From positions 67,573 to 131,572 of the forward strand of contig CAZBAJ010000001.1 of assembly GCA_964490125.1 (NCBI GenBank): DNA of 64,000 nt. The letters are read 5' to 3'. Each line of letters begins with the position of its first letter. Position 1 is the first letter of the stretch. Positions 1,572 through 53,584 of the stretch are shown here, in pieces. The DNA is from an uncultured Candidatus Saccharibacteria bacterium. Its GTDB lineage: Bacteria; Patescibacteriota; WWE3; UBA101185; UBA10185. The position numbers and the translations under genes were made by a program. A model generated the notes under the pieces. That model saw only the letters and a list, made by a program, of their open reading frames with translations. It did not search any database and had not been told where the DNA came from.

Positions 1572-2111
1572 CTAAAAAGCCTTGGGCTTAAAGCCTTTGG
1601 GATTTAGAACTTTAAAGTGCTTGTTTTTCTGCGTTAAAACAAACAAACCGCTATTTTGAGCCTTTTCGGCAAAGTCGCTTGTAACAGTCATACCAGCTAT
1701 TCCGCCTAGTACTTGATAATTTTGGTAGTTTGGGAAGGATGATTTGAATAGTGGTAATTTTCTGCCTACAAAATCATTTAAATCGTTGATATGTGGCTTT
1801 TGTTTGACTTCCAGTACTGCTACAACTTTGCCGTTTGTTAGTACTATATCCCACTCGTTTCTTTGTGGGTCTCTTACATTTTTTGCTACGGTGTCAAATT
1901 TTATACCGTTAAGTTGTTTTTGAGTTTCTAGCCCCGTGTAAAAATAATCTTCGGCTACCTGTCCGATATTATTAGAAATGTTCCCATAGTCAGTAGTAAC
2001 CCTTTTTACCTCTGCGCTAAGTTCCTTTATTGCCATATCACGCTCCTTGGCGCTTTTGGCAACCTCTTTGACTATATCTTCCAGTGATTTTTTATTTGTC
2101 CTTTGTTTCAC
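1572..2111 (-). CDS. Hypothetical protein with restriction-endonuclease-like (PD-(D/E)XK) signature, paralog 1
   Basis: Motif EWDIVLTNGKVVAVLEVKQK (D...E-V-K); clear paralog of 4055..4549 (shared AEDYFY, NGIKFD, LEVK, GFKPKA C-terminus); apparent GTG start; TTGACT-N17-TAAAAG promoter-like sequence ends 6 nt before the start (leaderless?). Confidence 0.55.
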   Translation of the reverse strand: MKQRTNKKSLEDIVKEVAKSAKERDMAIKELSAEVKRVTTDYGNISNNIGQVAEDYFYTGLETQKQLNGIKFDTVAKNVRDPQRNEWDIVLTNGKVVAVLEVKQKPHINDLNDFVGRKLPLFKSSFPNYQNYQVLGGIAGMTVTSDFAEKAQNSGLFVLTQKNKHFKVLNPKGFKPKAF

Positions 2112-2296
2112 ACTAAACTTTTATCAAAACACTAAACAAAAGTCAATATGACAATTTATGTCTGTGGGATTTACATGCGGGTTTGGGACTCCAGACTTTC
2201 GCTTGCCGTCGGTTTATAAACCGAATAATCTTTTCAGATAACAAGCCCTATTATATTACCATAAAGTGGTGCAATGGGGTGTGCTAAACTTGTCGC

Positions 2297-4051
2297 ATGA
2301 AAAAATGGGTAGTTAGGGAGGTTTACAATCCCGGTGCTAATGTGCTAAATGATTTTAATTCTATTCTCGACTTACTACTACAAAATCGGGGGATCGACGA
2401 AAATTTACGCCAGGAATTTCTAAATCCATTACATATTTCAGAGTATCTAAAGAAATTGCGGAGCGACTTTAAGGAGTCGCTCAAACAAGCGCGCGATGAG
2501 ATTACCAACGCTATAAATCAAAGTCGTCCAATAATAATTCACGGCGACTACGATGCGGATGGGATTTGCGCTACCGCCATTTTGTACAAAACCCTCACAG
2601 AAACACTCGGTTACAAAAAAGTGGCTTATTTTATACCCAATCGATTTGACCAGGGCTACGGGCTTTCCGCGGATTCGGTTAAGGAAATGGACGACTTAGT
2701 GAATGGCCGATTTGGTTTAATAGATGATGTCGATAATAAAGCTGGCAAAAGGGTCGTCCTGCATAAAAACAAGTCAAACGAACCAACCGCTCTTATTATA
2801 ACGGTGGATTGTGGGATAACCGCGGAGGAGGCAGTTTTGCAACAGGCGCGCGACTTAGGTTTTAAAATTATTATAACCGACCACCACCAAAAGCAGGAAT
2901 CTCTACCCCAATCGGATGTTTTGCTTTGGAACGACCAGATGGTAGGCGCTAGTGCTGCGCTAATGTTGGCGCTTGTTTTGGGCTTGCGAGATGAGCAATT
3001 ACTTTGTTTGGCGGGCATTGCCACCGTGACGGATTTAATCCCGCTTAAAGGGTTTAATCGGGCGTTGGTTAAAAAGTCGCTTGCGATTTTAAATACCAAC
3101 CCACCTTTGGGAATAAAAACGCTCATCGATGTTGCTGGTAGATCTAACGGTGAGCTTGGGGTGTACGACCTGGGTTACATAATCGGTCCTCGTCTTAATG
3201 CCTCAGGTCGATTGGATTCAGCTTACGAGTCGCTAAAATTACTGTTGGAAAATGACAAAAAAGAAGTCGCCCAAATTGCCCAAAAACTTAACGCAGTAAA
3301 TTTAGAGCGCCAGGAAATGACCCAAAAAATGTACGACTTGGCGGAGCGCCTTTACATAGAAGATGCCGGACGCAACAAGCAGAAAATAATTATCGTAGTT
3401 TCTGAAAACTTTCATGAGGGTGTTATTGGTTTGGTGGCAGGTAAGTTGGCACAAAAATATGCTAAGCCCACAATTGCTATAAGCATTAATGGAGAAATGG
3501 CAAAAGGTTCGGTGCGGTCTGTGGCTGGTGTAAATATTATAGAATTTTTGCGACATTTTGGAGACCGGTTTACTAGTTTAGGCGGACATCCTATGGCGGC
3601 GGGTTTTTCTGTTAAAAAAGTCGACCTGACTAAACTTACAGAGGACTTATACAACTACGCGCAGGAAACCATTTCTGACGATGTTTTAGTCCCGCAACTT
3701 ACTGTGGATTTAGAATTGCCGATTGCACAAATAAGTAGCGATTTATTAAAGCAGGTCGACCAGTTAAAACCGTATGGAATAGGTAACCCGGAACCGCTCT
3801 TTCTGTCACGGAAGGTTGGTGTTGCCGGATGCGATTTTGTCGGCAAAGAGGGCTCCCATTTGTCGCTCAAACTTTTTGACGGACAAACCACCTACAAAGC
3901 CGTTATGTTTGACGCCAAAAATTTGGGAATTTCCGGCTTTAACTTGGGCGACAAACTAGATATCGTCTACACCGCGTCGCTTAAAGATTACAACGGAAAA
4001 ACCTACACGGATTTAGTTATTAAGGATTTTGCTATTTCGTTGCAAGGTTAA
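2297..4051 (+). CDS. recJ: Single-stranded-DNA-specific exonuclease RecJ
   Basis: DHH motif region IIIHGDYDADGICATAIL, DHHQ, DHHA1-like GGHPMAAG; 584 aa. Confidence 0.9.
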   Translation: MKKWVVREVYNPGANVLNDFNSILDLLLQNRGIDENLRQEFLNPLHISEYLKKLRSDFKESLKQARDEITNAINQSRPIIIHGDYDADGICATAILYKTLTETLGYKKVAYFIPNRFDQGYGLSADSVKEMDDLVNGRFGLIDDVDNKAGKRVVLHKNKSNEPTALIITVDCGITAEEAVLQQARDLGFKIIITDHHQKQESLPQSDVLLWNDQMVGASAALMLALVLGLRDEQLLCLAGIATVTDLIPLKGFNRALVKKSLAILNTNPPLGIKTLIDVAGRSNGELGVYDLGYIIGPRLNASGRLDSAYESLKLLLENDKKEVAQIAQKLNAVNLERQEMTQKMYDLAERLYIEDAGRNKQKIIIVVSENFHEGVIGLVAGKLAQKYAKPTIAISINGEMAKGSVRSVAGVNIIEFLRHFGDRFTSLGGHPMAAGFSVKKVDLTKLTEDLYNYAQETISDDVLVPQLTVDLELPIAQISSDLLKQVDQLKPYGIGNPEPLFLSRKVGVAGCDFVGKEGSHLSLKLFDGQTTYKAVMFDAKNLGISGFNLGDKLDIVYTASLKDYNGKTYTDLVIKDFAISLQG

Positions 4052-4054
4052 GAT

Positions 4055-4549
4055 CTAGTACGCTTTTGGTTTAAAACCTTCTGAATTTAGCACTCTAAAG
4101 TTTACGCCGTCCTGCGTCAACACAGAAAGCCCGTATTTCTCCGCTTCCTTCATGCTGTCTTTTGGCACTGCCATACCTGCTACACCGCCATAGACATGAA
4201 AATTTGAAAAACCTGGTACAGTTTGTTTAAAAAGGGGCAGTTTTTGTGTGGCAAAATCCTCTACATCTTTAGGATGAAGCTTGTGTTTAACTTCTAAAAC
4301 CGCTACCGAATTACCGTTTTTCAGCACAATATCCCATTCAAGGTCGTTAAACCCGCCAAAATTTTTGGCTACATCGTCATATTTAATTCCGTTTAATACT
4401 TTTTTATGCTTAAGCGCGGAGTAAAAATACTCTTCAGCCACATCACCCAAATTGTTTCCTATTCCACCCATTCTTTGCATAGCTTTTTCTACATAGGCGT
4501 CAAGTTCCGCTAATGCACGACTCCGTTTGGTTGACGAGGGTTTTTTCAT
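4055..4549 (-). CDS. Hypothetical PD-(D/E)XK-like protein, paralog 2
   Basis: EWDIVLKNGNSVAVLEVKHK motif; paralog of 1572..2111; TTGACA-N17-TATTAA on minus strand ends 6 nt before ATG, no SD (leaderless?). Confidence 0.55.
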   Translation of the reverse strand: MKKPSSTKRSRALAELDAYVEKAMQRMGGIGNNLGDVAEEYFYSALKHKKVLNGIKYDDVAKNFGGFNDLEWDIVLKNGNSVAVLEVKHKLHPKDVEDFATQKLPLFKQTVPGFSNFHVYGGVAGMAVPKDSMKEAEKYGLSVLTQDGVNFRVLNSEGFKPKAY

Positions 4550-4624
4550 AAGGATTTAATATCAAAAATCACTTCTAGTGTCAATACGACAATTTATGTC
4601 TATGGGATGTAGATAAGGGTTTGG

Positions 4625-4710
4625 GACTCCAGAGAGAGAGAGTTAAATGTGCATCACCGTCCGTGGACGATGTTGTCGTTTTAACCTCCTCTCCCTGGAG
4701 TCTTTTTTTT
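4625..4710 (+). terminator. Conserved structured hairpin (about 23-bp imperfect stem; arms GACTCCAGAGAGAGAGAGTTAAA / TTTAACCTCCTCTCCCTGGAGTC) followed by T8; copy b of a repeated element
   Basis: Inverted repeat read directly; on the minus-strand RNA the A-C mismatches become G-U wobbles (stronger fold); T8 on plus strand overlaps the stop codon of the convergent small ORF. Confidence 0.6.
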
Positions 4711-4888
4711 ACGAAAACAGCACCTCCACGATAGCGTGGGCTATCCACACAATCAGCGCCACGATTACGAGGAAAAACAACAGCCCCATCACTAGGGCCG
4801 CCCACCATTCCTCGGCCAATATCCCCAGGAACAGGGTGACCCCCAGTCCCGTGAGGACAACTTTCAACAGAAATTTGAACACCGACAT
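4709..4888 (-). CDS. Small two-TM hydrophobic peptide (60 aa, MSVFKFLLKVVLTGLGVTLFLGILAEEWWAALVMGLLFFLVIVALIVWIAHAIVEVLFS)
   Basis: SD GAGGGAGG 6 nt upstream of ATG 4888; TTGTAC-N17-TATAAT promoter on minus strand; markedly GC-rich relative to surroundings; paralog-like to 8075..8239. Confidence 0.55.
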   Translation of the reverse strand: MSVFKFLLKVVLTGLGVTLFLGILAEEWWAALVMGLLFFLVIVALIVWIAHAIVEVLFS

Positions 4889-4983
4889 CTTATCCTCCCT
4901 CGACCCAGAGTTGTTTGTCAACGATGCCTATAATTATAACATGTATTGTTGACTTGTACAAAATATTGGTTTATGTTAGACTC

Positions 4984-5254
4984 CTTACAGTCGCAAAGAT
5001 CCGGCAAACACCGGGGAGCATGGGGAAGAAAGTCCTGTTGAAGGAAGGACGCTGGAAAGTGTCGCCTAAATCCGTCAACCAAGATAAGTAGAACCCCACG
5101 GGAAAGCCCGTTACAGATTAAATCCAGTCGGCAAGAAACCGGAGGGATGCAAAGGTTTGGGTGGAAACACTCAAGCAAAATGAGGTGGCAACGCGGTAAA
5201 ACGCCCTCATGAGATTGTCAAATTAATTTTGGCGGTTTTGTGAGGGCATTTTTT
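4984..5254 (+). promoter_or_regulatory. T-box riboswitch leader (Asp/Asn) with intrinsic terminator
   Basis: Promoter TTGACT(4949)-N17-TATGTT; T-box-like AAATGAGGTGGCAACGCGG (UGGC would pair with a G73 tRNA: Asp/Asn); terminator GCCCTCAT...GTGAGGGC + T6 at 5203-5254; directly upstream of class IIb aaRS gene. Confidence 0.6.
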
Positions 5255-5296
5255 GTCGTCATACCGCAAGTGGCAATAAACCACAAGAAAGGAACC

Positions 5297-6586
5297 ATGG
5301 AGCGTACCTACATTAAAGACCTAAAAGAAAAGCTTGGGCAGGAAGTTAAAATCGACGGGTTTGTGCAAGTGCGACGGGATCAGGGCGGGATTAAATTTAT
5401 AGTTTTGCGCGATGTTACGGGAACTGTGCAATGCATTGTAATGAAGCAGTCGGGGGAGGTGTTTGACCAGGTTGGCGGGCTGTCGTTGGAATCGGTAGTA
5501 GAAATTGGCGGACTTGTTAAAGAGCAAAAGCAGGCGCCCGGCGGATTTGAAGTGGAAATAAAGTCGCTTAAAGTTTTGTCTGTTGCAGAGCCTTTGCCCA
5601 TTCCGGTAATGGAAGAAAAAGGCGGTAATGAGGTTGACGCGACTTTGCGGTTTGACTATAGGTGGATTGATCTGCGCAAGCCGGAAAAGCTTAAAATTTT
5701 TAAGGTCTGGACGGCGCTGGAGAAAGGTTTTAGAAAGTATTTTGCAGACAACGGGTTTATTCAGGTTTATTCTCCGTCAATAATGGGTACTGCTAGCGAA
5801 GGTGGCGCGGAGGTCTTTGAGATTAAATATTACGACAAAAAAGCCTATTTATCCCAGTCGCCACAATTCTACAAGCAGTTAGCCCAAGCCGCGGGTTTTG
5901 AGAAAGTGTTTTTGATGGTTCCGTATTATCGGGCGGAGCTTTCCTTTACAACCCGTCACATGACTGATTTTACCGGTTGGGATTTTGAGATGTCGTTTAT
6001 AGAGTCGCACGAGGATATTGCAAAAGCAGAAGAAGGGATGTTGGTTGAGGGTTTCAAAGCGGTTAAGGCAGAAGTCTTGTCGGACTTAGAGGTTCCTACT
6101 TTACCGTTTCCAAGGTTGACTATGAAGGAAGCTAAAGAGCGACTTAAAAAGGTTGGAATACCTAGCGAGAAGGACGGAGACTTTTCTTCTGAAGAAGAGC
6201 GGGAAATTGGTCGACTTATGAAGGAAGAAACCGGACATGATTTTGTATTTGTTACGGAATATGGCGCACCGTACCGGGCTTTTTACCACATGCGACCAGA
6301 AAATGATCAGAGTGTAACCAAAAGCTACGATCTTATGTACAAAGGTTTAGAGATTACAACGGGTGCCCAAAGAGAACATCGTCCGGAAATTCTAAAGAAG
6401 CAGGCAATAGAAAAAGGCGTGCCGACCGAGCCCTTAGAGGGCTATTTTAGCTACTTTAAGTACGGTTGTCCGCCTCATGGCGGCGCAGGCATAGGTCCCG
6501 GCAGAATTGTCATGAAGATTTTGGATTTGGAAAGCGTAAAAGACGCCACCTTTTTGCCAAGGGATGTAAAGCGTCTGACGCCTTAG
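5297..6586 (+). CDS. aspS: Aspartyl- or asparaginyl-tRNA synthetase (class IIb, archaeal/eukaryal-type, about 430 aa)
   Basis: N-terminal OB-fold then class II catalytic core (GAPYRAFYHMRP... GGAGIGPGR motif 3); start taken as MERTYIK at 5297 (SD AAAGGAA) because ATG 5240 lies inside the T-box terminator. Confidence 0.8.
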   Translation: MERTYIKDLKEKLGQEVKIDGFVQVRRDQGGIKFIVLRDVTGTVQCIVMKQSGEVFDQVGGLSLESVVEIGGLVKEQKQAPGGFEVEIKSLKVLSVAEPLPIPVMEEKGGNEVDATLRFDYRWIDLRKPEKLKIFKVWTALEKGFRKYFADNGFIQVYSPSIMGTASEGGAEVFEIKYYDKKAYLSQSPQFYKQLAQAAGFEKVFLMVPYYRAELSFTTRHMTDFTGWDFEMSFIESHEDIAKAEEGMLVEGFKAVKAEVLSDLEVPTLPFPRLTMKEAKERLKKVGIPSEKDGDFSSEEEREIGRLMKEETGHDFVFVTEYGAPYRAFYHMRPENDQSVTKSYDLMYKGLEITTGAQREHRPEILKKQAIEKGVPTEPLEGYFSYFKYGCPPHGGAGIGPGRIVMKILDLESVKDATFLPRDVKRLTP

Positions 6587-6607
6587 GTTTAAGGCCGTTG
6601 CGACAAT

Positions 6608-6631
6608 AAATTCTATTCAGATTAGAGACAA
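6608..6631 (+). promoter_or_regulatory. Conserved 24-nt motif AAATTCTATTCAGATTAGAGACAA, copy 1, immediately upstream of TTGTCA -35-like hexamer
   Basis: Near-identical copies at 10987..11010 and 53438..53461, each just after or overlapping a stop codon and 1-6 nt upstream of a -35-like hexamer. Confidence 0.5.
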
Positions 6632-6682
6632 CTATCTTGTCAAGTGTATTTTTTAGTGTAATCTTCCCCGCAGGTGGACCAT

Positions 6683-6755
6683 GGGCCGTCCGATCCGGGA
6701 TCAAGCTTGATCTTCAATCTTGCATAGACGGGTTCGACTCCCGTACGGTCCACCA
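6683..6755 (+). ncRNA. tRNA-like element (7-bp acceptor GGGCCGT/ACGGTCC, T-arm ACGGG-TTCGACT-CCCGT, discriminator A, CCA) without a canonical D/anticodon region
   Basis: T-loop TTCGACT and encoded CCA read directly; region between acceptor and T-arm (38 nt, contains palindrome GATCAAGCTTGATC) does not fold as anticodon arm; promoter-like TTGTCA-N16-TAATCT upstream. Confidence 0.35.
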
Positions 6756-6849
6756 AAAATTTAATTTGACTTTTTAATTGGTTTAGTGTAAGTTATTAAC
6801 AGAAGATCAAGCTTGTATCCGACGAAAGTCTCTTGCAAGATGCACAGAA

Positions 6850-6905: not shown

Positions 6906-7970
6906 ATGGATATCGGTATCGTTAGGAACACATTAATAGTTGTTCTGCTTTTGGGTGCAAAAACCCTAGCTTTCTTGGAATCCAAAGTGTTTGACATTTT
7001 GGTAAAAATTGCACTGGCTCTGGCGATTGGTTACGCGCTGGCGTTAAATAGATTATCAATCGAACACCTGTACACGAGGGCACAGGGTGATGTAAAAACA
7101 TACATTTGGTACAAAACCCTGCCAGCCGACTATTTTGCCAAGCTAGACCAAGAGTCCCAGGCCGTTTTTGCCAGGTATCAAGAGGCCATCAAGCCTAAAC
7201 CACCAACTAGAATCGCAGAAACTCCGTTCCCATCAATTACTGCCAAGTCGCACATTATAATAGATGTCACAACAAACACCGTTTTAAGTTCCAAGGATAC
7301 CAATTTGCCTCTGCCTCCTGCCTCAACCGCTAAGCTAGCAACCGCTTTAGCGTCGCTCAAAATTTACAAGCTGAATGAAGAAATCACCGTTCCTCAGTTT
7401 TGTACGCAGGTTGACGGCACAAAAGCCGAGTTTCTCCAAGGTCAAAAATTTCTGGTGGGTGACTTATTAAAAGCCCTGTTGGTTTATTCCTCTGGTGACG
7501 CTGGTTGTGTGCTATCCATTGGCAAAACTTCTTACGCGGATTTTATTAGACTTATGAACGAGGTCGCCAAAGAGGCGGGCATGCAAAACACAAAATTTAC
7601 TAATCCTATTGGTTTGGACGACGCGGACGGTCAAAATTTAGCTTCCGCGGAGGATTTAGCAAAGCTGGGCATGTTTGCGGTTAAAAACGACTTTATAAAA
7701 GAAGTTGTACGACTTAAAGACCTTGAGCTTAAAGATTTGGACGGAGAATATGTTAAGCGACTTGCAAACACCAATAAATTGTTGACGGAAATTCCGGAAA
7801 GTGTAGGCATAAAAACCGGTACGACCACAGGGGCCGGGGAGGTTTTAATTTATGAATACGCCAAGGACAAGACGAATTTAATAATCGTCGTAATGGGTTC
7901 AGCTGATCGCTTTAAGGATGTAAAAGATTCATTGGCTTGGGCTCTAAATTCCTACGAATGGGATAAATAG
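6906..7970 (+). CDS. dacA: Serine-type D-Ala-D-Ala carboxypeptidase (PBP5/6 family, S11)
   Basis: SXXK (ASTAKL), SXN-like (SSGDAG), KTG (KTGTT) motifs; N-terminal TM. Confidence 0.75.
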   Translation: MDIGIVRNTLIVVLLLGAKTLAFLESKVFDILVKIALALAIGYALALNRLSIEHLYTRAQGDVKTYIWYKTLPADYFAKLDQESQAVFARYQEAIKPKPPTRIAETPFPSITAKSHIIIDVTTNTVLSSKDTNLPLPPASTAKLATALASLKIYKLNEEITVPQFCTQVDGTKAEFLQGQKFLVGDLLKALLVYSSGDAGCVLSIGKTSYADFIRLMNEVAKEAGMQNTKFTNPIGLDDADGQNLASAEDLAKLGMFAVKNDFIKEVVRLKDLELKDLDGEYVKRLANTNKLLTEIPESVGIKTGTTTGAGEVLIYEYAKDKTNLIIVVMGSADRFKDVKDSLAWALNSYEWDK

Positions 7971-7997: not shown

Positions 7998-8076
7998 GGA
8001 TTCCAGAGAGAGAGAGTTAAATGTGCGACAAGATGTTGTCGTCGGTTTAACCTCCTCTCTCCGGAGTCTTTTTTTT
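7998..8076 (+). terminator. Conserved structured hairpin + T8, copy c of repeated element (arms GATTCCAGAGAGAGAGAGTTAAA / TTTAACCTCCTCTCTCCGGAGTC)
   Basis: Same arms and shared loop words (TGTGC, GATGTTGTCGT) as copy at 4625..4710; follows dac stop; T8 overlaps stop codon of convergent small ORF. Confidence 0.6.
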
Positions 8077-8239
8077 ATTTCTCCTTCTCCTTCTGCCAAA
8101 ACTTGATGGTGGAAAGGATACAAAGGCCGGCTATGCCGACCAGCAGAGTCGCCTCTAGCCACCGTCGCTGAGATGCGAGCCAGGCTGACTCTATTAGCGC
8201 CGACACCACCAGCGCTAACGCTAAGATATACTTGACCAT
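8075..8239 (-). CDS. Small two-TM hydrophobic peptide (54 aa, MVKYILALALVVSALIESAWLASQRRWLEATLLVGIAGLCILSTIKFWQKEKEK), not in supplied ORF track (<60 aa)
   Basis: Translated by hand from minus strand; SD AGGGAGG 4 nt upstream of ATG; GC-rich; same TM-charged-TM architecture and same placement relative to hairpin as 4709..4888. Confidence 0.5.
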   Translation of the reverse strand: MVKYILALALVVSALIESAWLASQRRWLEATLLVGIAGLCILSTIKFWQKEKEK

Positions 8240-8310
8240 GGTCCCTCCCTGTTTGACTTAGTCGCTTTTCAAAGCTCCGCGGTTATTATAACAAATATAA
8301 GGAGGAAAGT

Positions 8311-9471
8311 CTATTTTGAGGTTGGCGAACCCGTGTTACTTTCTACAGGCAAGATATAGTCGCCGGAGATGGCGGGGTAGTAAACGGTGAGTTGACCCGC
8401 ACCCCCGCCTACTGTCGTGTAATTTCCCTCAAACACATAAATTGGTTGTAAATACTTTTGCAATTTTGGCGTGTCGTAATAAGCCAGGTAGATACTGTTA
8501 ATTAAAATCTTGTCAATTCTTATTGGCACATACGGTTCAAACGGATTGCCGTCCTTTGCCATAATCCCAGCAATTACGCCCTTGTTTTTATTGACTTCCG
8601 CCCACGCCATGGCAACAGAAATTATCGGGTAAGTAGCGTTTTGGTCTTTTTCTTTGTCCACTAATTCCCATTGATACGCCTCCACCTTGGGGAAAATTAA
8701 CTGCTTGTATTTTGTATCTCTCGGCGTTCCTACCCAAACATGTAACAAACCTTTATACGGGTCCGGTCCTAAGATAGGAAAGCTTTTAAAACCTCTAAAA
8801 AAATCCACCCTAACAATTTGCGTTTCGTAGTCAAAGTTTACGGCGTGAATTTCTCCGCCTACATATTTGCCCAAATACGCTTTAGAAGTTCCTGTGTAGT
8901 ACATTTCTCCAAACCGTCCGGCAGAAACTAGCATGTTTCTGGCTTGGTCTGTTGCGGTGTCAGCCTTTAGTCGTCCAGCAATATAATAATTAGCTTTGCC
9001 AAATAATGGTAGATCTAATTTAATTTCCCGGGTTTTAGTATTGACATCAAGTCGCCCGTTAAAAGTAGGATCTACCCATGAATAAATTGGGTCAGTAGTT
9101 TGACTGATAAAACTGTCGTCATAATAACCTAAAATAGCTCCTGTGCGTTGGGCGTTTTTGCCTGCTTCATAGGAAAAAAGTGGTTGACGGAGTCTAAAAA
9201 CGGGCATTTTATTGGGAAAATCTGTGGGAAGACGACCGTTTTTGGTGTTTAAAATGTACTGCGGGTCCGAATTAGTGATTTTTTTGTATTGAAACTCCGG
9301 CGCGTCAATTTTGCCAAAGAGGGTGGTTGGCAGATCTTTTGGCGGATTAATCATGTAGACGAGTTTTTTGACGGGTGCTTTTAGGGTAACAAAGGCTATG
9401 TATAAGCCCAAAACCGCCACTACGGTAAAAAGAATGCGTTTAAATAGAGCAGATGTTTCTACCAAATTCAC
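8311..9471 (-). CDS. Hypothetical membrane-anchored (signal-anchor) secreted-domain protein
   Basis: N-terminal TM helix then 350-aa non-hydrophobic domain; no recognised catalytic motif. Confidence 0.5.
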   Translation of the reverse strand: MNLVETSALFKRILFTVVAVLGLYIAFVTLKAPVKKLVYMINPPKDLPTTLFGKIDAPEFQYKKITNSDPQYILNTKNGRLPTDFPNKMPVFRLRQPLFSYEAGKNAQRTGAILGYYDDSFISQTTDPIYSWVDPTFNGRLDVNTKTREIKLDLPLFGKANYYIAGRLKADTATDQARNMLVSAGRFGEMYYTGTSKAYLGKYVGGEIHAVNFDYETQIVRVDFFRGFKSFPILGPDPYKGLLHVWVGTPRDTKYKQLIFPKVEAYQWELVDKEKDQNATYPIISVAMAWAEVNKNKGVIAGIMAKDGNPFEPYVPIRIDKILINSIYLAYYDTPKLQKYLQPIYVFEGNYTTVGGGAGQLTVYYPAISGDYILPVESNTGSPTSK

Positions 9472-9517: not shown

Positions 9518-10999
9518 ATGACCGAAGATACAAAGTTGGTAAAAACTAGGATGGCACCCAGTCCGACCGGAGAGTTTCATATTGGTGGCATGCGTACACT
9601 GCTTTATAACTACGCTTTTGCCAAGAAAAATCACGGTAAATTTCTTTTAAGGATAGAAGACACAGATCGGGAAAGGTTTGTGGAAGGAGCAATAGAAAGG
9701 GCTTACCAGGTGATAAAAGATTACGGTTTGAGTTGGGATGAAGGTCCGTTAGTAGGAGGTCCAAACGAGCCTTATGTTCAGTCACAGAGACTGGACTTGT
9801 ACAAAAAACACGCTTTAGAACTTGTGGAAAAAGGTCACGCTTATTACTGCTTTTGTACAAAGGAGCGACTTGATGAGATGCGTAAGAAGCAACAGCATGA
9901 GCATTTAAGCGTTACAAAGTACGATCGCCATTGTTTGAGTTTGACCTCGGAACAAGTTGCTGAAAATCTAAAAACGGGTGTATCTTATGTTATACGGATG
10001 AAAGTGCCTTCAGACAGGGCGGTTTCTTATGACGATGTGTTTTTGGGGAAAATTGAGGTACCGTCCAACGACATTGAAGATCAGGTATTGTTAAAATCGG
10101 ATGGATTTCCCACCTACCACCTTGCCGTAGTTGTTGACGATCATTTAATGGGCGTTACCCACATTTTGCGCGGTAGAGAGTGGCTTCCATCTACGCCCAA
10201 ACATGTTTTGTTGTATGAGTTTTTTGGTTGGGATATGCCTATAACAGGTCACTTTCCGGTTTTAAAAGAAGTCGGTTCAACTAAAAAAATGTCTAAACGC
10301 TTTGGGGATGTTGCGGCTACGGACTTTCTAAAAAACGGCTACTTGCCCGAGGCGCTTTTAAACTTCATCATGCTTTTGGGCTGGAACCCCGGCACAGAGC
10401 AAGAAGTATTTTCTTTGGAGGAATTTATTAAGGTTTTTTCGCTTGAACGAATTCATAAAACAGATTTAGTGGCTTTTGATAGGGAAAAGTTATTATGGTT
10501 TAACGGTTACTACATCCGCCAACTATCCGATAGCGATCTTTACGAAAAAATATCTGCGTGGGCAAAAAAGTGGGATACAGATTTGAATTTGGAATTAAAG
10601 GATCGGGAGTTTTCCACTAGAATTTTGGCGCTAATAAAGGACAGAATGAAATTACTTAGCGACTTTAAGGAGCTGTCGACCTACTTTTTTGTAGATCCCG
10701 TGGTTGACACCAAAGCATTCTCTAATCATTCTGGAGAAAAATGGCAAGCTATTTTGCAGGGTTTTGAAAAAGCTTTCTCAGAACTTGAAGAAGGCCGTTG
10801 GAATAAGGAAAATCTAGATAAAATATCGCACCAGGTTTTGGAAGAGCAAGGATTTTCACCAAAAGAGGCGTTTATGACCTTGCGTCTTGCCGTTACAGGA
10901 CAAACTGCTACACCGCCACTTTTTGATGTGCTTGAACTTTTGGGAAAAAGAGAGGTGGGGCGCCGTCTTAAAGTCGTCCTACCAACAAATTCTAATTAG
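9518..10999 (+). CDS. gltX: Glutamyl-tRNA synthetase
   Basis: HIGH-class motif PTGEFHIGG and KMSKR; 493 aa. Confidence 0.9.
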   Translation: MTEDTKLVKTRMAPSPTGEFHIGGMRTLLYNYAFAKKNHGKFLLRIEDTDRERFVEGAIERAYQVIKDYGLSWDEGPLVGGPNEPYVQSQRLDLYKKHALELVEKGHAYYCFCTKERLDEMRKKQQHEHLSVTKYDRHCLSLTSEQVAENLKTGVSYVIRMKVPSDRAVSYDDVFLGKIEVPSNDIEDQVLLKSDGFPTYHLAVVVDDHLMGVTHILRGREWLPSTPKHVLLYEFFGWDMPITGHFPVLKEVGSTKKMSKRFGDVAATDFLKNGYLPEALLNFIMLLGWNPGTEQEVFSLEEFIKVFSLERIHKTDLVAFDREKLLWFNGYYIRQLSDSDLYEKISAWAKKWDTDLNLELKDREFSTRILALIKDRMKLLSDFKELSTYFFVDPVVDTKAFSNHSGEKWQAILQGFEKAFSELEEGRWNKENLDKISHQVLEEQGFSPKEAFMTLRLAVTGQTATPPLFDVLELLGKREVGRRLKVVLPTNSN

Positions 11000-11010
11000 A
11001 TTAGAGACAA
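10987..11010 (+). promoter_or_regulatory. 24-nt motif copy 2 (AAATTCTAATTAGATTAGAGACAA) overlapping gltX stop, upstream of recA promoter TTGACA-N17-TACATT
   Basis: Sequence identity to copies 1 and 3. Confidence 0.5.
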
Positions 11011-11071
11011 CTTGTTGACAAAAGTCTCGCGCTGAAATACATTCACACCATAAATTGCAGAAGGAGGAAAT

Positions 11072-51750: not shown

Positions 51751-53439
51751 ATGCACAACCGCTTTACTCTGGTTAAACTTGGGATTATCGTATTGTCGTT
51801 TATTGCGGCATCCCGACTTTTTAGCATTCAAATCTTGTCGCACAAACTATACATAGCCCGCGCCTACGATCAATACGCCAACTTTATAACAATTCCTGCT
51901 AAACGCGGGGAAATTTTAACCTCCGACGGTTATCCTTTGGCGTCAAATCAAGTGTCGTACTTACTTTACGCCGAACCTAAAAAACTTAAAGACAAGCAAA
52001 AACTAATTGACGCGGTGCTGTCTATTTTACCAAAGGAAATTAGTGCAAAGGAAGATGAGCGACTTAAAGAGTTGCTTGACTACAATTTGGCATGGGTGGC
52101 TTTGGAACATAACTTGTCCCCAACTCAAAAAACAACCTTGGAGCAACTAAAGCTAGAAGGAATTGGGTTTGAAGAAGAATCCGTGCGGTTTTATCCGGAA
52201 GGCTCTTTAGCGGCGCATGTTTTGGGTTATGTGGCGGAGCAGGAGGACGGTACACAAGGCGGTTACTATGGTATTGAGGCGGCTTTTAATGGCGACTTAC
52301 AGGGTCGACCAGGCAAAGTAACGGAGGAAAAAGATGCACTAGGTCTTTCTATTTTGACGGGCGGATTTACAAAAGTTCCACCGGTGGACGGCAAGCCAAT
52401 TAGGTTAACCATAGACCGCACTGTGCAGTACATTATAGAAAAAAAGCTTAAGGAGGGTGTAGAAAAGTACGATGCTGGAGACGGCGTGATTATTGTAATG
52501 AATCCCATGGACGGCAGTATTTTGGGCATGGCGACTTATCCGGCATATGATCCTCAAAACATGGATTTTACCGAGCCCGCTGTTTCTGCCGAGTCCGGTA
52601 GAAAGGCGCGTGAGCATAGAAATCTGGCAATTTCGTATTTATATGAGCCGGGTTCCGTAATAAAGCCGTTAACTGTTTCCTCCGCCATAGATTTAGGTTT
52701 AGCGACGCCGGAAACTGCTTATTTCGACCCGGGTTCTGCAGTGTATTCAAATTATACTATTAGAAATTGGGATGGAAAAGCTTTAGGACCCATGAATTTA
52801 ACCACTCTGCTCCAAAAGTCTAACAACATTGGTGCGGCATGGGTAGGACATTTGGTTGGTGCAGACGCACTTTCTACTTATTTTAGAAAATATGGTCTTG
52901 GCGCCCTTTCCGGGGTGGCACTGGAGGGTGAGGAGGCAAGTTTACTTAGGGATTACAAGGAAACTACTGACATTGATCTTGCTACTATGTCCTTTGGACA
53001 GGGAATTTTAGCAACGCCTTTACAGGTGTTAAACGCGTTTAATGCTATTGCAAATGGTGGTATTTTGTATCGCCCAAAAATTGTAGCGGACACGGAGCCA
53101 AAAGAGCTTGGTAGAGTAATAAAAAAAGAGACTTCCAATACTATGATAGATATGCTAATAAAAGCGGTGGACGGTGGGGAGTCAAAATACTTTAATATTA
53201 AAAACTATGTAGTGGCGGGCAAAACGGGTACTGCGCAAATTGCAGTTGCCGGTGGTTACGATCCGCATAAAACTAACGCCACATTTGTGGGCTTTTTGCC
53301 CGCCACCAAAAGATTTTCTATGATAGTTAAGTTGCGAGAACCCCAAACAAGTATTTACGCGGCAGAGACTGCCGTCCCTCTTTGGATGGAGACGGCCGGC
53401 GAGCTGGCAAAGTACTATTCTATCCCGTCAGATAAATAA
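51751..53439 (+). CDS. ftsI: Peptidoglycan D,D-transpeptidase FtsI (class B PBP)
   Basis: SVIKP (SXXK), SNN (SXN), KTGT motifs; N-terminal TM. Confidence 0.85.
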   Translation: MHNRFTLVKLGIIVLSFIAASRLFSIQILSHKLYIARAYDQYANFITIPAKRGEILTSDGYPLASNQVSYLLYAEPKKLKDKQKLIDAVLSILPKEISAKEDERLKELLDYNLAWVALEHNLSPTQKTTLEQLKLEGIGFEEESVRFYPEGSLAAHVLGYVAEQEDGTQGGYYGIEAAFNGDLQGRPGKVTEEKDALGLSILTGGFTKVPPVDGKPIRLTIDRTVQYIIEKKLKEGVEKYDAGDGVIIVMNPMDGSILGMATYPAYDPQNMDFTEPAVSAESGRKAREHRNLAISYLYEPGSVIKPLTVSSAIDLGLATPETAYFDPGSAVYSNYTIRNWDGKALGPMNLTTLLQKSNNIGAAWVGHLVGADALSTYFRKYGLGALSGVALEGEEASLLRDYKETTDIDLATMSFGQGILATPLQVLNAFNAIANGGILYRPKIVADTEPKELGRVIKKETSNTMIDMLIKAVDGGESKYFNIKNYVVAGKTGTAQIAVAGGYDPHKTNATFVGFLPATKRFSMIVKLREPQTSIYAAETAVPLWMETAGELAKYYSIPSDK

Positions 53440-53461
53440 ATTCTATTCAGATTAGAGACAA
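53438..53461 (+). promoter_or_regulatory. 24-nt motif copy 3 (AAATTCTATTCAGATTAGAGACAA) directly after ftsI stop, upstream of TTGCAA hexamer
   Basis: Identity to copy 1. Confidence 0.5.
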
Positions 53462-53584
53462 GTGTATTGCAATGTTATTACTTTTGGTAATAATGGTGTC
53501 AGTCATAATTTTGCTAGGCAAGCCGGTAAGTTTGCATCTTAAGTGAGTGGGTACGGTTGCTACTATGCCGGCTTGTTATATATG

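What the first reader, a model, noticed from the sequence alone, without database searches (positions are those of the whole stretch)
4560..4960. Repeated module: conserved long hairpin-T8 element convergent with a GC-rich 2-TM micro-protein gene (type I toxin-antitoxin-like), copy b
An imperfect stem of about 23 bp (GACTCCAGAGAGAGAGAGTTAAA ... TTTAACCTCCTCTCCCTGGAGTC) is followed by T8 on the plus strand. On the minus-strand RNA three A-C mismatches become G-U pairs, so the fold is stronger in antisense.

The T8 overlaps the TAA stop of a convergent 60-aa ORF with two hydrophobic helices separated by EEWW. That ORF has a GGGAGG SD and a TTGTAC-N17-TATAAT promoter, and is far more GC-rich than the surrounding genome.

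The arrangement resembles 3'-overlapping type I TA loci such as txpA/RatA, bsrG/SR4 and fst: small membrane toxin mRNA and antisense RNA overlapping at a shared terminator. The plus-strand promoter region is also the divergent promoter of the PD-(D/E)XK paralog 4055..4549.
Basis: partly seen in the sequence, partly recalled or inferred. Interest (0 to 1): 0.7.

Follow-up and report, generated by a model that had tools for sequence, protein, structure and literature searches.

The report
Swappable micro-gene slot ending in hairpin
The hairpin and the small membrane-peptide gene are real, but the hairpin is better read as the fixed end of a slot in which related Saccharibacteria-like strains carry different tiny genes than as a toxin-antitoxin pair.

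Summary
A 78-nt imperfect palindrome at 4625-4702 is followed by T8 and overlaps the stop codon of a 59-aa two-helix ORF (4709-4888, minus strand). That ORF has a GGGAGG ribosome-binding site and a TGnTATAAT promoter.

A second full copy lies at 7999-8068 next to an unrelated 54-aa two-helix ORF. A decayed copy lies at about 2175-2241.

The type I toxin-antitoxin reading is not backed by comparison with relatives. In seven related genomes or contigs the same hairpin follows at least six unrelated small ORFs, most of them hydrophilic.

One strain is 100% identical to the window for 1149 bp up to the hairpin base. Beyond that point it carries a different gene. Conversely, genomes only about 70-80% identical in the flanking genes share the 59-aa cassette at 95-100%.

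The T8 run goes with the cassette, not with the hairpin. No plus-strand promoter for an antisense RNA was found. The 59-aa peptide is an orphan.

My best reading is a strain-variable, self-promoted small-gene slot resembling a phage moron. Its conserved 3' stem-loop would act as terminator or stabiliser and as the recombination junction. What the peptides do is unknown.

The parts
4625..4702 (.). Hairpin copy b: a 78-nt imperfect palindrome with a 23-position basal stem and a variable apical mini-stem.
   Evidence: CM hit E = 4e-25.
4703..4710 (+). T8 run (A8 on the minus strand, between the stop codon and the hairpin). It belongs to the 59-aa cassette, not to the hairpin.
   Evidence: It is absent in L031 and L033, whose hairpins are identical or nearly so. 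L022 and L024 have TCTCTTTTT instead.
4709..4888 (-). 59-aa two-helix hydrophobic ORF (MSVFKFLLKVVLTGLGVTLFLGILAEEWWAALVMGLLFFLVIVALIVWIAHAIVEVLFS). It is an orphan.
4894..4899 (-). Shine-Dalgarno sequence GGGAGG, 5 nt upstream of the ATG.
4933..4960 (-). Promoter of the small ORF: TGTACA-16-TATAAT with an upstream TG (extended -10).
4703..4985 (-). The exchangeable block: 3' spacer, ORF, 5'UTR, and the divergent promoters of the cassette and of the T-box leader.
   Evidence: It is 95-100% identical to L022 and L024 while the flanks are 57-85% identical. It is unrelated to L031, whose flank is 100% identical up to 4703.
4541..4633 (-). Conserved block upstream of the nuclease-like paralogs. 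It holds a TTGACA-17-TATTAA promoter and CTGGAGTCCCAAACCC, and overlaps the outer part of the invariant hairpin arm.
   Evidence: Repeat D1 with 2103-2195. Also conserved in L022, L026, L029 and L036.
4055..4549 (-). 164-aa protein with a PD-(D/E)XK nuclease fold, directly downstream of the hairpin on the same strand.
7999..8068 (.). Hairpin copy c.
   Evidence: E = 1e-20.
8069..8076 (+). T8 after copy c. With the hairpin it forms a canonical intrinsic terminator 29 nt after the stop of the plus-strand gene 6906-7970.
8075..8239 (-). 54-aa two-helix ORF, unrelated to the 59-aa ORF. No homologue was found anywhere.
8285..8313 (-). Promoter of the 54-aa ORF: TAGACT-17-TATAAT with an upstream TG. 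Its ribosome-binding site GGGAGGG is at 8243-8249.
2175..2241 (-). Decayed copy a. Only GGGACTCCAGA and fragments of the other arm and of the promoter remain, and no ORF.
   Evidence: The same site in L022 holds a full hairpin plus a 73-aa Cys-rich ORF.
1572..2111 (-). 179-aa paralog of the 164-aa nuclease-like gene, next to copy a.
4987..5211 (+). T-box leader of the class II aminoacyl-tRNA synthetase gene 5240-6586. It is the conserved right-hand boundary of slot b.
   Evidence: RF00230, 40 bits, E = 3.4e-7, below the gathering score.

Best explanation
The hairpin is the conserved 3' end of a small-gene expression slot.

**Anatomy of a slot.** Each slot has four parts:
- a strong extended -10 promoter
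- a short 5'UTR with a strong Shine-Dalgarno sequence
- one or two tiny ORFs rich in third-position GC
- the roughly 80-nt stem-loop, 6-18 nt after the stop codon

The ORF content differs between closely related Saccharibacteria-like strains, while the hairpin stays almost invariant.

**Shown.**
- Cassette content is exchanged.
- The breakpoints fall at or inside the hairpin.
- The cassette has moved recently between genomes that are otherwise about 25% divergent.

**Inferred.**
- On the minus-strand mRNA the stem-loop ends or stabilises the small-gene transcript. It also insulates the downstream nuclease-like gene, which has its own promoter.
- The hairpin, as the only near-identical stretch in diverged DNA, serves as the homology anchor for allelic replacement. 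This would follow natural transformation, which has been demonstrated in Saccharibacteria.
- In this window the A8/T8 run carried by the two hydrophobic cassettes makes the hairpin a canonical terminator for plus-strand transcription as well. That would serve the penicillin-binding-protein gene at copy c and any read-through from the RecJ gene at copy b.

The 59-aa peptide is probably a genuine small membrane protein of unknown role.
For: **Same hairpin, different genes.**
- Site b holds the 59-aa two-helix ORF in the window, L022, L023, L024 and L025.
- Site b holds a 54-aa acidic ORF in L004.
- Site b holds a 42-aa ORF1 plus the acidic ORF in L026.
- Site b holds ORF1 plus a 69-aa CxxCxGxG zinc-finger ORF in L034 and L033, and the zinc-finger ORF alone in L031.
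- Site c holds the 54-aa two-helix ORF in the window and a 63-aa hydrophilic ORF in L018.
- Site a holds a 73-aa Cys-rich ORF in L022.

**Breakpoints.**
- L031 is 100.000% identical to the window over 1149 bp ending exactly at 4703, the hairpin base. It is unrelated beyond that point.
- Against L022 and L024 the 164-aa gene is 57-78% identical, but 4670-5030 is 95-100% identical.
- The apical loop of window copy b matches L022 site a, not L022 site b.

**Recent spread rather than selection.** The 59-aa ORF has 6 variable sites across 5 strains. Five are nonsynonymous and all are G>A or C>T.

**Presence or absence.**
- Site c is empty in L022 and L029.
- Site b is reduced to CTCTCTGGAGTCCCAAACC in L036.
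- Site a is decayed in the window and in L026.

**Evidence that these are real genes.**
- The ORF1 core shows 15 synonymous against 6 nonsynonymous changes.
- GC3 is 0.50-0.75 against 0.36-0.48 in housekeeping genes, with low GC2 in most of the ORFs.
- Consensus promoters with an upstream TG are present for both window ORFs.

**Hairpin as an RNA element on the minus strand.**
- It folds independently within the full predicted mRNA.
- Five of the six variable stem positions switch between A-U and G-U on that strand.
- Five different apical sequences each form their own mini-stem.

**Supporting literature.**
- Natural competence and homologous-recombination insertion in Saccharibacteria: PMC10633639.
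- Definition of a moron (own promoter and terminator, deviant GC, presence or absence among relatives): PMC3594210.
Against: - There is no transcript data, so terminator or stabiliser activity is inferred from structure only.
- The minus strand has no U-run after the hairpin (CCCAAACCC follows). This genome's other terminators, such as the T-box terminator at 5203-5247, are canonical hairpin-plus-U sites. Termination of the small-gene mRNA may therefore be inefficient.
- The basal stem shows no two-sided compensatory change.
- One arm is strictly invariant while the other drifts. That points to an additional sequence-specific constraint that a terminator role does not explain.
- The sample is small: seven related genomes or contigs and three sites.
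- Homologous recombination explains replacement of cassettes. It does not explain how unrelated ORFs first came to sit between the same flanks.
Confidence: 0.55

Rival explanations
1. Type I toxin-antitoxin locus. The 59-aa peptide would be a membrane toxin. A plus-strand RNA ending at the hairpin-T8 terminator would overlap the 3' end of the toxin mRNA and repress it.
For: - Both window cassettes encode roughly 55-60-aa two-helix hydrophobic peptides with strong expression signals.
- Both, and only these, carry the A8/T8 run that makes the hairpin a plus-strand terminator.
- The locus shows horizontal mobility and orphan status, which are common for type I toxins.
Against: - No plus-strand promoter lies in 4550-4625.
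- At copy c the hairpin lies 29 nt after a plus-strand coding gene.
- The hairpin is shared with cassettes that encode hydrophilic proteins.
- There is no match to any toxin family in Pfam, NCBIfam, PADLOC or PHROGs.
- The two peptides are unrelated to each other.
Confidence: 0.12
2. Site-specific cassette system in the manner of an integron. The hairpin would be a folded recombination site at which small-gene cassettes are inserted or exchanged by a dedicated enzyme. That enzyme might be the adjacent PD-(D/E)XK nuclease-like paralogs.
For: - Breakpoints coincide with the hairpin base and lie inside the hairpin.
- One arm is invariant across all copies.
- Two of the three sites adjoin paralogs of a nuclease-fold protein.
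- Empty sites keep only CTGGAGTCCCAAACC.
- Copy c carries about 25 nt of a/b-type flank beyond the hairpin.
Against: - There is only one hairpin per slot, and no second site on the promoter side.
- The hairpin does not travel with its ORF, unlike an attC site.
- The GTTAAA...TTTAAC boxes are internal and in the opposite order to attC R''/R'.
- No arrays of cassettes, no target-site duplication, and a very low copy number.
- Homologous recombination within the conserved hairpin explains the same breakpoints.
Confidence: 0.13
3. An ordinary intrinsic terminator next to spurious or decaying orphan ORFs. The repeat similarity would reflect a segmental duplication, and the small ORFs would have no function.
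For: - Sites a and b are paralogous duplications that include the hairpin flank.
- Copy c plus T8 is a textbook terminator for the gene 6906-7970.
- The 59-aa ORF shows no purifying selection.
- The 54-aa ORF has no homologue.
Against: - Every cassette has a strong Shine-Dalgarno sequence and a TATAAT -10 hexamer, preceded by TG in most.
- Codon-position GC periodicity is present.
- ORF1 is under clear purifying selection.
- The zinc-finger ORF is conserved across diverged lineages.
- The hairpin is conserved at 95-100% where the flanks are about 70-75% identical.
- T8 is absent in most copies.
Confidence: 0.1
4. A selfish palindromic repeat of the MITE, REP or Correia-element type that happens to lie beside small ORFs.
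For: It is a long imperfect palindrome with conserved arms and a variable centre, present at several loci and shared between species.
Against: - There are only two copies plus one remnant in 64 kb, and two hits in the related MAG.
- It always sits at the same three syntenic sites.
- It always has the same orientation, directly 3' of a small ORF.
- There is no target-site duplication.
- It was not found in 185,579 species representatives outside this clade, nor in viral contigs or phage records.
Confidence: 0.05

Closest known systems
Phage morons: autonomous 'more DNA' transcription units (PMC3594210).
   Same: - One small gene with its own promoter and its own stem-loop terminator.
- Base composition differs from that of the neighbours.
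- Present, absent or different between close relatives.
- Spread by horizontal transfer.
   Different: - This slot lies among housekeeping genes (RecJ, an aminoacyl-tRNA synthetase, a penicillin-binding protein), not in a prophage.
- The terminator-like hairpin has the same sequence at every slot and across species.
- That hairpin is the recombination junction. Morons have no common terminator.
Integron gene cassettes with attC sites.
   Same: - Small, mostly orphan ORFs.
- Each is followed by a 60-140-nt imperfect palindrome with conserved base and variable centre.
- Cassette content varies between strains.
   Different: - The boxes are inverted and internal (GTTAAA...TTTAAC).
- The hairpin stays with the chromosome rather than with the ORF.
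- Each cassette has its own promoter.
- There is a single slot rather than an array.
- I did not look for an integrase.
3'-overlapping type I toxin-antitoxin loci (txpA/RatA, bsrG/SR4, fst/RNAII).
   Same: - A small hydrophobic peptide gene with strong expression signals.
- A long 3' stem-loop that could terminate both strands.
- Multi-copy, and poorly annotated.
   Different: - No antisense promoter was found.
- The hairpin is shared with hydrophilic cassettes.
- The peptide has two helices and belongs to no known family.
Intercistronic and 3' stabiliser stem-loops (REP/BIME in E. coli operons), and RNase III retroregulation sites (lambda sib). Both are cited from my own knowledge.
   Same: A long stem-loop just downstream of an ORF and upstream of the next gene on the same strand. 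Such an element can set the half-life of the upstream mRNA segment.
   Different: - Very low copy number here.
- One arm is invariant.
- It is associated with gene replacement.

Membership tests
Type I toxin-antitoxin system | Small (under about 60 aa) hydrophobic peptide gene. | tested here: met
   The 59-aa and 54-aa ORFs each have two hydrophobic helices. Toxicity itself cannot be tested here.
Type I toxin-antitoxin system | A cis-encoded antisense RNA gene with its own promoter that overlaps the toxin mRNA. | tested here: inconclusive
   The consensus scan finds no plus-strand promoter in 4550-4625. At copy c that space is coding sequence. A consensus scan cannot prove absence.
Type I toxin-antitoxin system | The toxin and its RNA partner are conserved together as a unit. 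| tested here: not met
   The hairpin is kept while the ORF is replaced by unrelated hydrophilic ORFs. T8 is lost along with the cassette.
Type I toxin-antitoxin system | Homology to a described toxin family. | tested here: not met
   Nothing significant in Pfam, NCBIfam, PADLOC or PHROGs. The exhaustive phmmer search found only the ORF's own cluster.
Integron attC site / gene cassette | R'' (RYYYAAC) and R' (GTTRRRY) boxes at the outer ends of the palindrome, in that order. | tested here: not met
   GTTAAAT comes before [GT]TTTAAC, and both lie inside a further 17-18 bp of stem.
Integron attC site / gene cassette | The attC site travels with the ORF it follows. | tested here: not met
   L031 has the identical hairpin and flank but a different ORF.
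Integron attC site / gene cassette | An integron integrase (IntI) and an attI site nearby, or arrays of cassettes. | not tested
   The window's proteins were not screened for tyrosine recombinases. No arrays exist: only two hairpins in 64 kb.
Moron-like autonomous transcription unit | Own promoter and own terminator-like stem-loop. | tested here: met
   Promoters with an upstream TG. Stable stem-loop 6-18 nt after the stop codon. Activity was not measured.
Moron-like autonomous transcription unit | Deviant composition, and presence or absence between relatives. | tested here: met
   GC3 is 0.50-0.75 against 0.36-0.48. Empty or remnant sites occur in L022, L029, L036 and L026.
Moron-like autonomous transcription unit | Resides in a phage or prophage genome. 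| tested here: not met
   The neighbours are RecJ, an aminoacyl-tRNA synthetase, a peptidase S11 protein, GluRS and RecA. No similarity to phage records or viral contigs.
REP / MITE-type dispersed palindromic repeat | Many dispersed copies per genome; for MITEs, target-site duplications. | tested here: not met
   Two copies plus one remnant in 64 kb. Two loci in the related MAG. No duplication at the junctions.
Rho-independent (intrinsic) terminator | Stable stem-loop immediately followed by a U-run on the transcribed strand. | tested here: inconclusive
   This is met on the plus strand in the window (T8). It is not met on the minus strand, and not met on either strand in L004, L018, L026, L031 or L022 site a.
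Any Rfam RNA family | Score at or near a family's gathering threshold. | tested here: not met
   No hit at gathering thresholds. Only spurious hits of 12-18 bits over the hairpin.

The most novel reading that the evidence does not exclude
The hairpin is the recognition site of a previously undescribed cassette-exchange system in Saccharibacteria/CPR. A structure-specific enzyme, possibly the adjacent PD-(D/E)XK nuclease-like paralogs, would cut at the hairpin base. Self-promoted micro-genes would then be inserted or swapped at a few fixed chromosomal slots. The invariant arm, with its (AG)5-7 tract, would be the protein-binding or promoter-like element. That element also occurs alone upstream of genes in other CPR genomes.
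Probability: 0.12. Interest if true: 0.85.

Novelty: new variant of a known kind. Interest (0 to 1): 0.55.

Why it matters
Saccharibacteria have roughly 1-Mb genomes with little accessory DNA and live attached to host bacteria. A locus that swaps highly expressed micro-proteins between strains, and between species about 25% divergent, is a candidate for strain-specific functions. Those could include host interaction, competition or defence.

The conserved promoter-to-hairpin frame could also serve as a natural expression and integration site for genetics in these naturally competent organisms.

If the hairpin proved to be a true recombination site, this would be a new class of gene-cassette system. 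If it does not, the result still corrects a plausible but unsupported toxin-antitoxin annotation.

Tried and rejected
- **Known RNA families.** Rfam returned nothing at gathering thresholds and only noise at E <= 10.
- **tRNA or tmRNA.** None was called anywhere in the window.
- **attC site.** I rejected this on box order, box position and the behaviour of the hairpin in L031.
- **Phage or viral origin.** No hit in viral contigs for the arm, and none in 50,697 phage records for either module.
- **Wider distribution of the hairpin.**
  - The scan of 185,579 species representatives gave true hairpins only in one Saccharibacteria MAG (L004, L018). Its other 14 hits were single-arm matches: L008 and L009 carry the arm upstream of a gene, and the rest look like chance.
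  - The metagenome scan gave only two non-hairpin promoter-like hits.
- **Homology of the peptides.**
  - The 59-aa ORF has only near-identical relatives.
  - The 54-aa ORF has none.
  - The two are unrelated to each other.
- **Antisense ORF 4647-4952.** The corresponding frame in copy c stops after 9 codons, so I dismissed it.
- **Covariation.** The basal stem shows no two-sided compensatory change, so structure cannot be proven that way.
- **Strand assignment from mismatches.** It favours the minus strand only slightly.
- **Literature.** Searches for such an element in Saccharibacteria or Patescibacteria found nothing.
Full report
**1. What is in the sequence**

GACTCCAGAGAGAGAGAGTTAAA (4625-4647) and TTTAACCTCCTCTCCCTGGAGTC (4680-4702) form a 23-position stem around a 32-nt centre. 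The centre has its own mini-stem. T8 follows at 4703-4710.

On the minus strand, ORF 4709-4888 encodes 59 aa with two hydrophobic helices separated by EEWW. Its signals are:
- GGGAGG five bases before the ATG
- a promoter TGTACA-16-TATAAT with an upstream TG

The arm recurs at 7999 with one mismatch. No match occurred in 100 shuffles.

Both strands fold far better than shuffled sequence. For copy b, z is -4.9 on the plus strand and -7.4 on the minus strand.

A covariance model built from ten copies finds exactly two full copies in the 64-kb window and a weak remnant at 2175-2241. Rfam has no family for it.

The ORF is 53% GC in a 42% GC window. The excess is in third codon positions: GC3 is 0.75 against 0.36-0.48 in neighbouring genes.

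**2. Surroundings**

On the minus strand the order is: promoter, 59-aa ORF, hairpin, a second conserved promoter, then a 164-aa gene (4055-4549).

That gene and its paralog 1572-2111 have weak sequence matches to PD-(D/E)XK nucleases. Their AlphaFold model (pLDDT 83) matches the nuclease domains of NucS/EndoMS, Card1 and Can2.

To the right lies a T-box leader at 4987-5211 (E = 3.4e-7, below Rfam's gathering score). It precedes a class II aminoacyl-tRNA synthetase gene.

Copy c (7999-8068 plus T8) sits 29 nt after the stop of a plus-strand peptidase S11 gene. It faces an unrelated 54-aa two-helix ORF with the same kind of promoter and ribosome-binding site.

**3. Relatives change the picture**

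The closest syntenic genome with an organism label is a MAG named 'uncultured Candidatus Saccharibacteria'.

I recovered syntenic loci from seven related genomes or contigs. The hairpin is present at the same three sites, always 6-18 nt after the stop of a small minus-strand ORF. Each of those ORFs has a strong ribosome-binding site and a TATAAT -10 hexamer, preceded by TG in most. The ORFs themselves are unrelated to one another:

| Site | Locus | ORF content |
|---|---|---|
| b | window, L022-L025 | 59-aa two-helix peptide |
| b | L004 | 54-aa acidic protein |
| b | L026 | 42-aa Lys-rich ORF1 plus the acidic protein |
| b | L034, L033 | ORF1 plus a 69-aa CxxCxGxG zinc-finger protein |
| b | L031 | the zinc-finger protein alone |
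| c | window | 54-aa two-helix peptide |
| c | L018 | 63-aa hydrophilic protein |
| a | L022 | 73-aa Cys-rich protein |

Some sites are empty or reduced to the sequence CTGGAGTCCCAAACC. These are site c in L022 and L029, site b in L036, and site a in the window and L026.

**4. Exchange with breakpoints at the hairpin**

- L031 is 100.000% identical to the window over 1149 bp, from within the RecJ gene through the 164-aa gene and the whole hairpin. The identity ends exactly at 4703, the hairpin base. Beyond it L031 carries the zinc-finger cassette and has no T-run.
- L033 is 99.4% identical in the same flank and carries ORF1 plus the zinc finger.
- L022 and L024 are only 57-78% identical to the window in the 164-aa gene and 76-90% in the synthetase gene. 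Yet they are 95-100% identical across 4670-5030, which covers one hairpin arm, the ORF, both divergent promoters and the start of the T-box.
- Among five strains the 59-aa ORF differs at six sites. Five are nonsynonymous and all are G>A or C>T. The high identity therefore reflects recent transfer rather than purifying selection.
- The apical loop of window copy b equals that of L022 site a and differs from L022 site b. The two halves of the hairpin can therefore have different histories.

**5. The hairpin itself**

In ten copies, the arm that is the left arm on the window's plus strand is invariant: GGGAYTCC(AG)nTTAAATGTGC. The only variation is n = 5, 6 or 7.

The other arm varies only by A/G transitions at six positions. 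Five of these switch between A-U and G-U on the minus-strand RNA. There is no two-sided compensatory change.

Five different apical sequences each form their own mini-stem. The hairpin forms independently in folds of the whole predicted mRNAs.

On the minus strand no U-run follows the hairpin. On the plus strand a T-run is present only with the two hydrophobic cassettes: T8 in the window and TCTCTTTTT in L022 and L024.

**6. Assessment of the toxin-antitoxin idea**

For it:
- two hydrophobic peptides
- strong expression signals
- a hairpin that can terminate both strands in this genome

Against it:
- no promoter for the proposed plus-strand RNA
- copy c is simply the terminator of the upstream plus-strand gene
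- the hairpin is shared with hydrophilic cassettes
- T8 goes with the cassette
- no toxin family membership
- only the ORF's own cluster among 1.84 billion representatives
- no homologue at all for the 54-aa ORF

I put this reading at about 0.12.

**7. Best explanation**

This is a strain-variable small-gene slot resembling a phage moron. It has its own promoter, its own stem-loop, deviant composition, and presence, absence or replacement among relatives (definition in PMC3594210). It is chromosomal, and one conserved hairpin serves all slots.

Shown:
- The cassette content is exchanged.
- The breakpoints are at or in the hairpin.
- The transfer across lineages is recent.
- At least some cassette ORFs are real genes. 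The ORF1 core has 15 synonymous against 6 nonsynonymous changes, and the zinc-finger family is conserved across lineages.

Inferred:
- The stem-loop ends or stabilises the minus-strand mRNA and insulates the downstream gene.
- The hairpin acts as the homology anchor for replacement by homologous recombination after natural transformation. Both processes have been demonstrated in Saccharibacteria (PMC10633639).

**8. Rivals**

- A dedicated hairpin-directed recombination system: 0.13.
- An ordinary terminator beside non-functional ORFs: 0.10.
- A selfish palindromic repeat: 0.05.

**9. What remains unexplained**

- Why one arm is invariant.
- Why the same 22-mer TCCAGAGAGAGAGAGTTAAATG stands alone upstream of unrelated genes in other CPR contigs, preceded by TTGACA in three of four.
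- Why only the hydrophobic cassettes carry A8.
- How unrelated ORFs first came to lie between identical flanks.

**10. Limits**

- The sample of relatives is small, and several contigs are about 1 kb.
- There are no expression data.

Noticed in passing
window 4987-5211 (+): T-box leader (RF00230, 40 bits against a gathering score of 93, E = 3.4e-7) with its terminator at 5203-5247, upstream of a class II aminoacyl-tRNA synthetase gene (5240-6586). Its promoter lies inside the exchangeable cassette block. The leader is absent in L029 and L030, where the synthetase gene starts 63 nt from the paralog.
   Followed up: partly
window 6589-6633, 10968-11012, 53419-53463 (+): Three copies of a roughly 45-nt repeat ending AAATTCTAWTYAGATTAGAGACAAST. 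Two start just after, and one just before, the end of a plus-strand gene (repeat D2). Function unknown.
   Followed up: no
window 6682-6756 (+): A tRNA-like 3' end (GGGTTCGACTCCCGTACGGTCCACCA, a T-arm plus CCA) in a 319-nt intergenic gap. ARAGORN does not call it. It scores only 17.6 bits against the Rfam tRNA-Sec model.
   Followed up: partly
L008:1330-1360, L009:305-335, L020:1325-1350 (-), L021:555-585 (-): The invariant hairpin arm TCCAGAGAGAGAGAGTTAAATG occurs without a partner arm upstream of unrelated genes in other CPR or unclassified contigs. TTGACA directly precedes it in three of the four, like a promoter with a conserved spacer.
   Followed up: partly
window 4631-4642; L022 6400-6415; L024 1040-1052: The (AG)n tract in the invariant arm is 6 units in the window, 7 in L022 site b and 5 in L024. 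This is microsatellite-type length variation inside the stem.
   Followed up: partly
window 4550-4590 and 2112-2150 (-): Both nuclease-like paralogs have a conserved TTGACA-17-TATTAA/TAAAAG promoter with an upstream TG. It ends only about 6 nt before the start codon, which suggests leaderless mRNAs. An inverted repeat GACA-N5-TGTC lies just upstream of the -35 element.
   Followed up: no
window 4051-4625 (+): The RecJ gene (2297-4051, plus strand) and the 164-aa gene (4055-4549, minus strand) converge with a 3-nt gap and no terminator-like site between them. The first plus-strand terminator after RecJ is therefore the hairpin-T8 at 4625-4710. RecJ read-through would be antisense to the 164-aa gene.
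   Followed up: no
L026:1154-1282, L034:277-399, L033:3-125: A conserved 40-42-aa Lys-rich micro-protein family (core VKVVTNPSGxVVATNxxTGKVVI) under purifying selection: 15 synonymous against 6 nonsynonymous changes in the L026/L034 comparison. It has no family match.
   Followed up: partly
L031:130-342, L033:137-342, L034:410-619: A family of 68-70-aa stand-alone DnaJ-type zinc-finger (CxxCxGxG) proteins. The C-terminal half is conserved and the N-terminal half is variable. They occupy the same slot as the 59-aa peptide.
   Followed up: no
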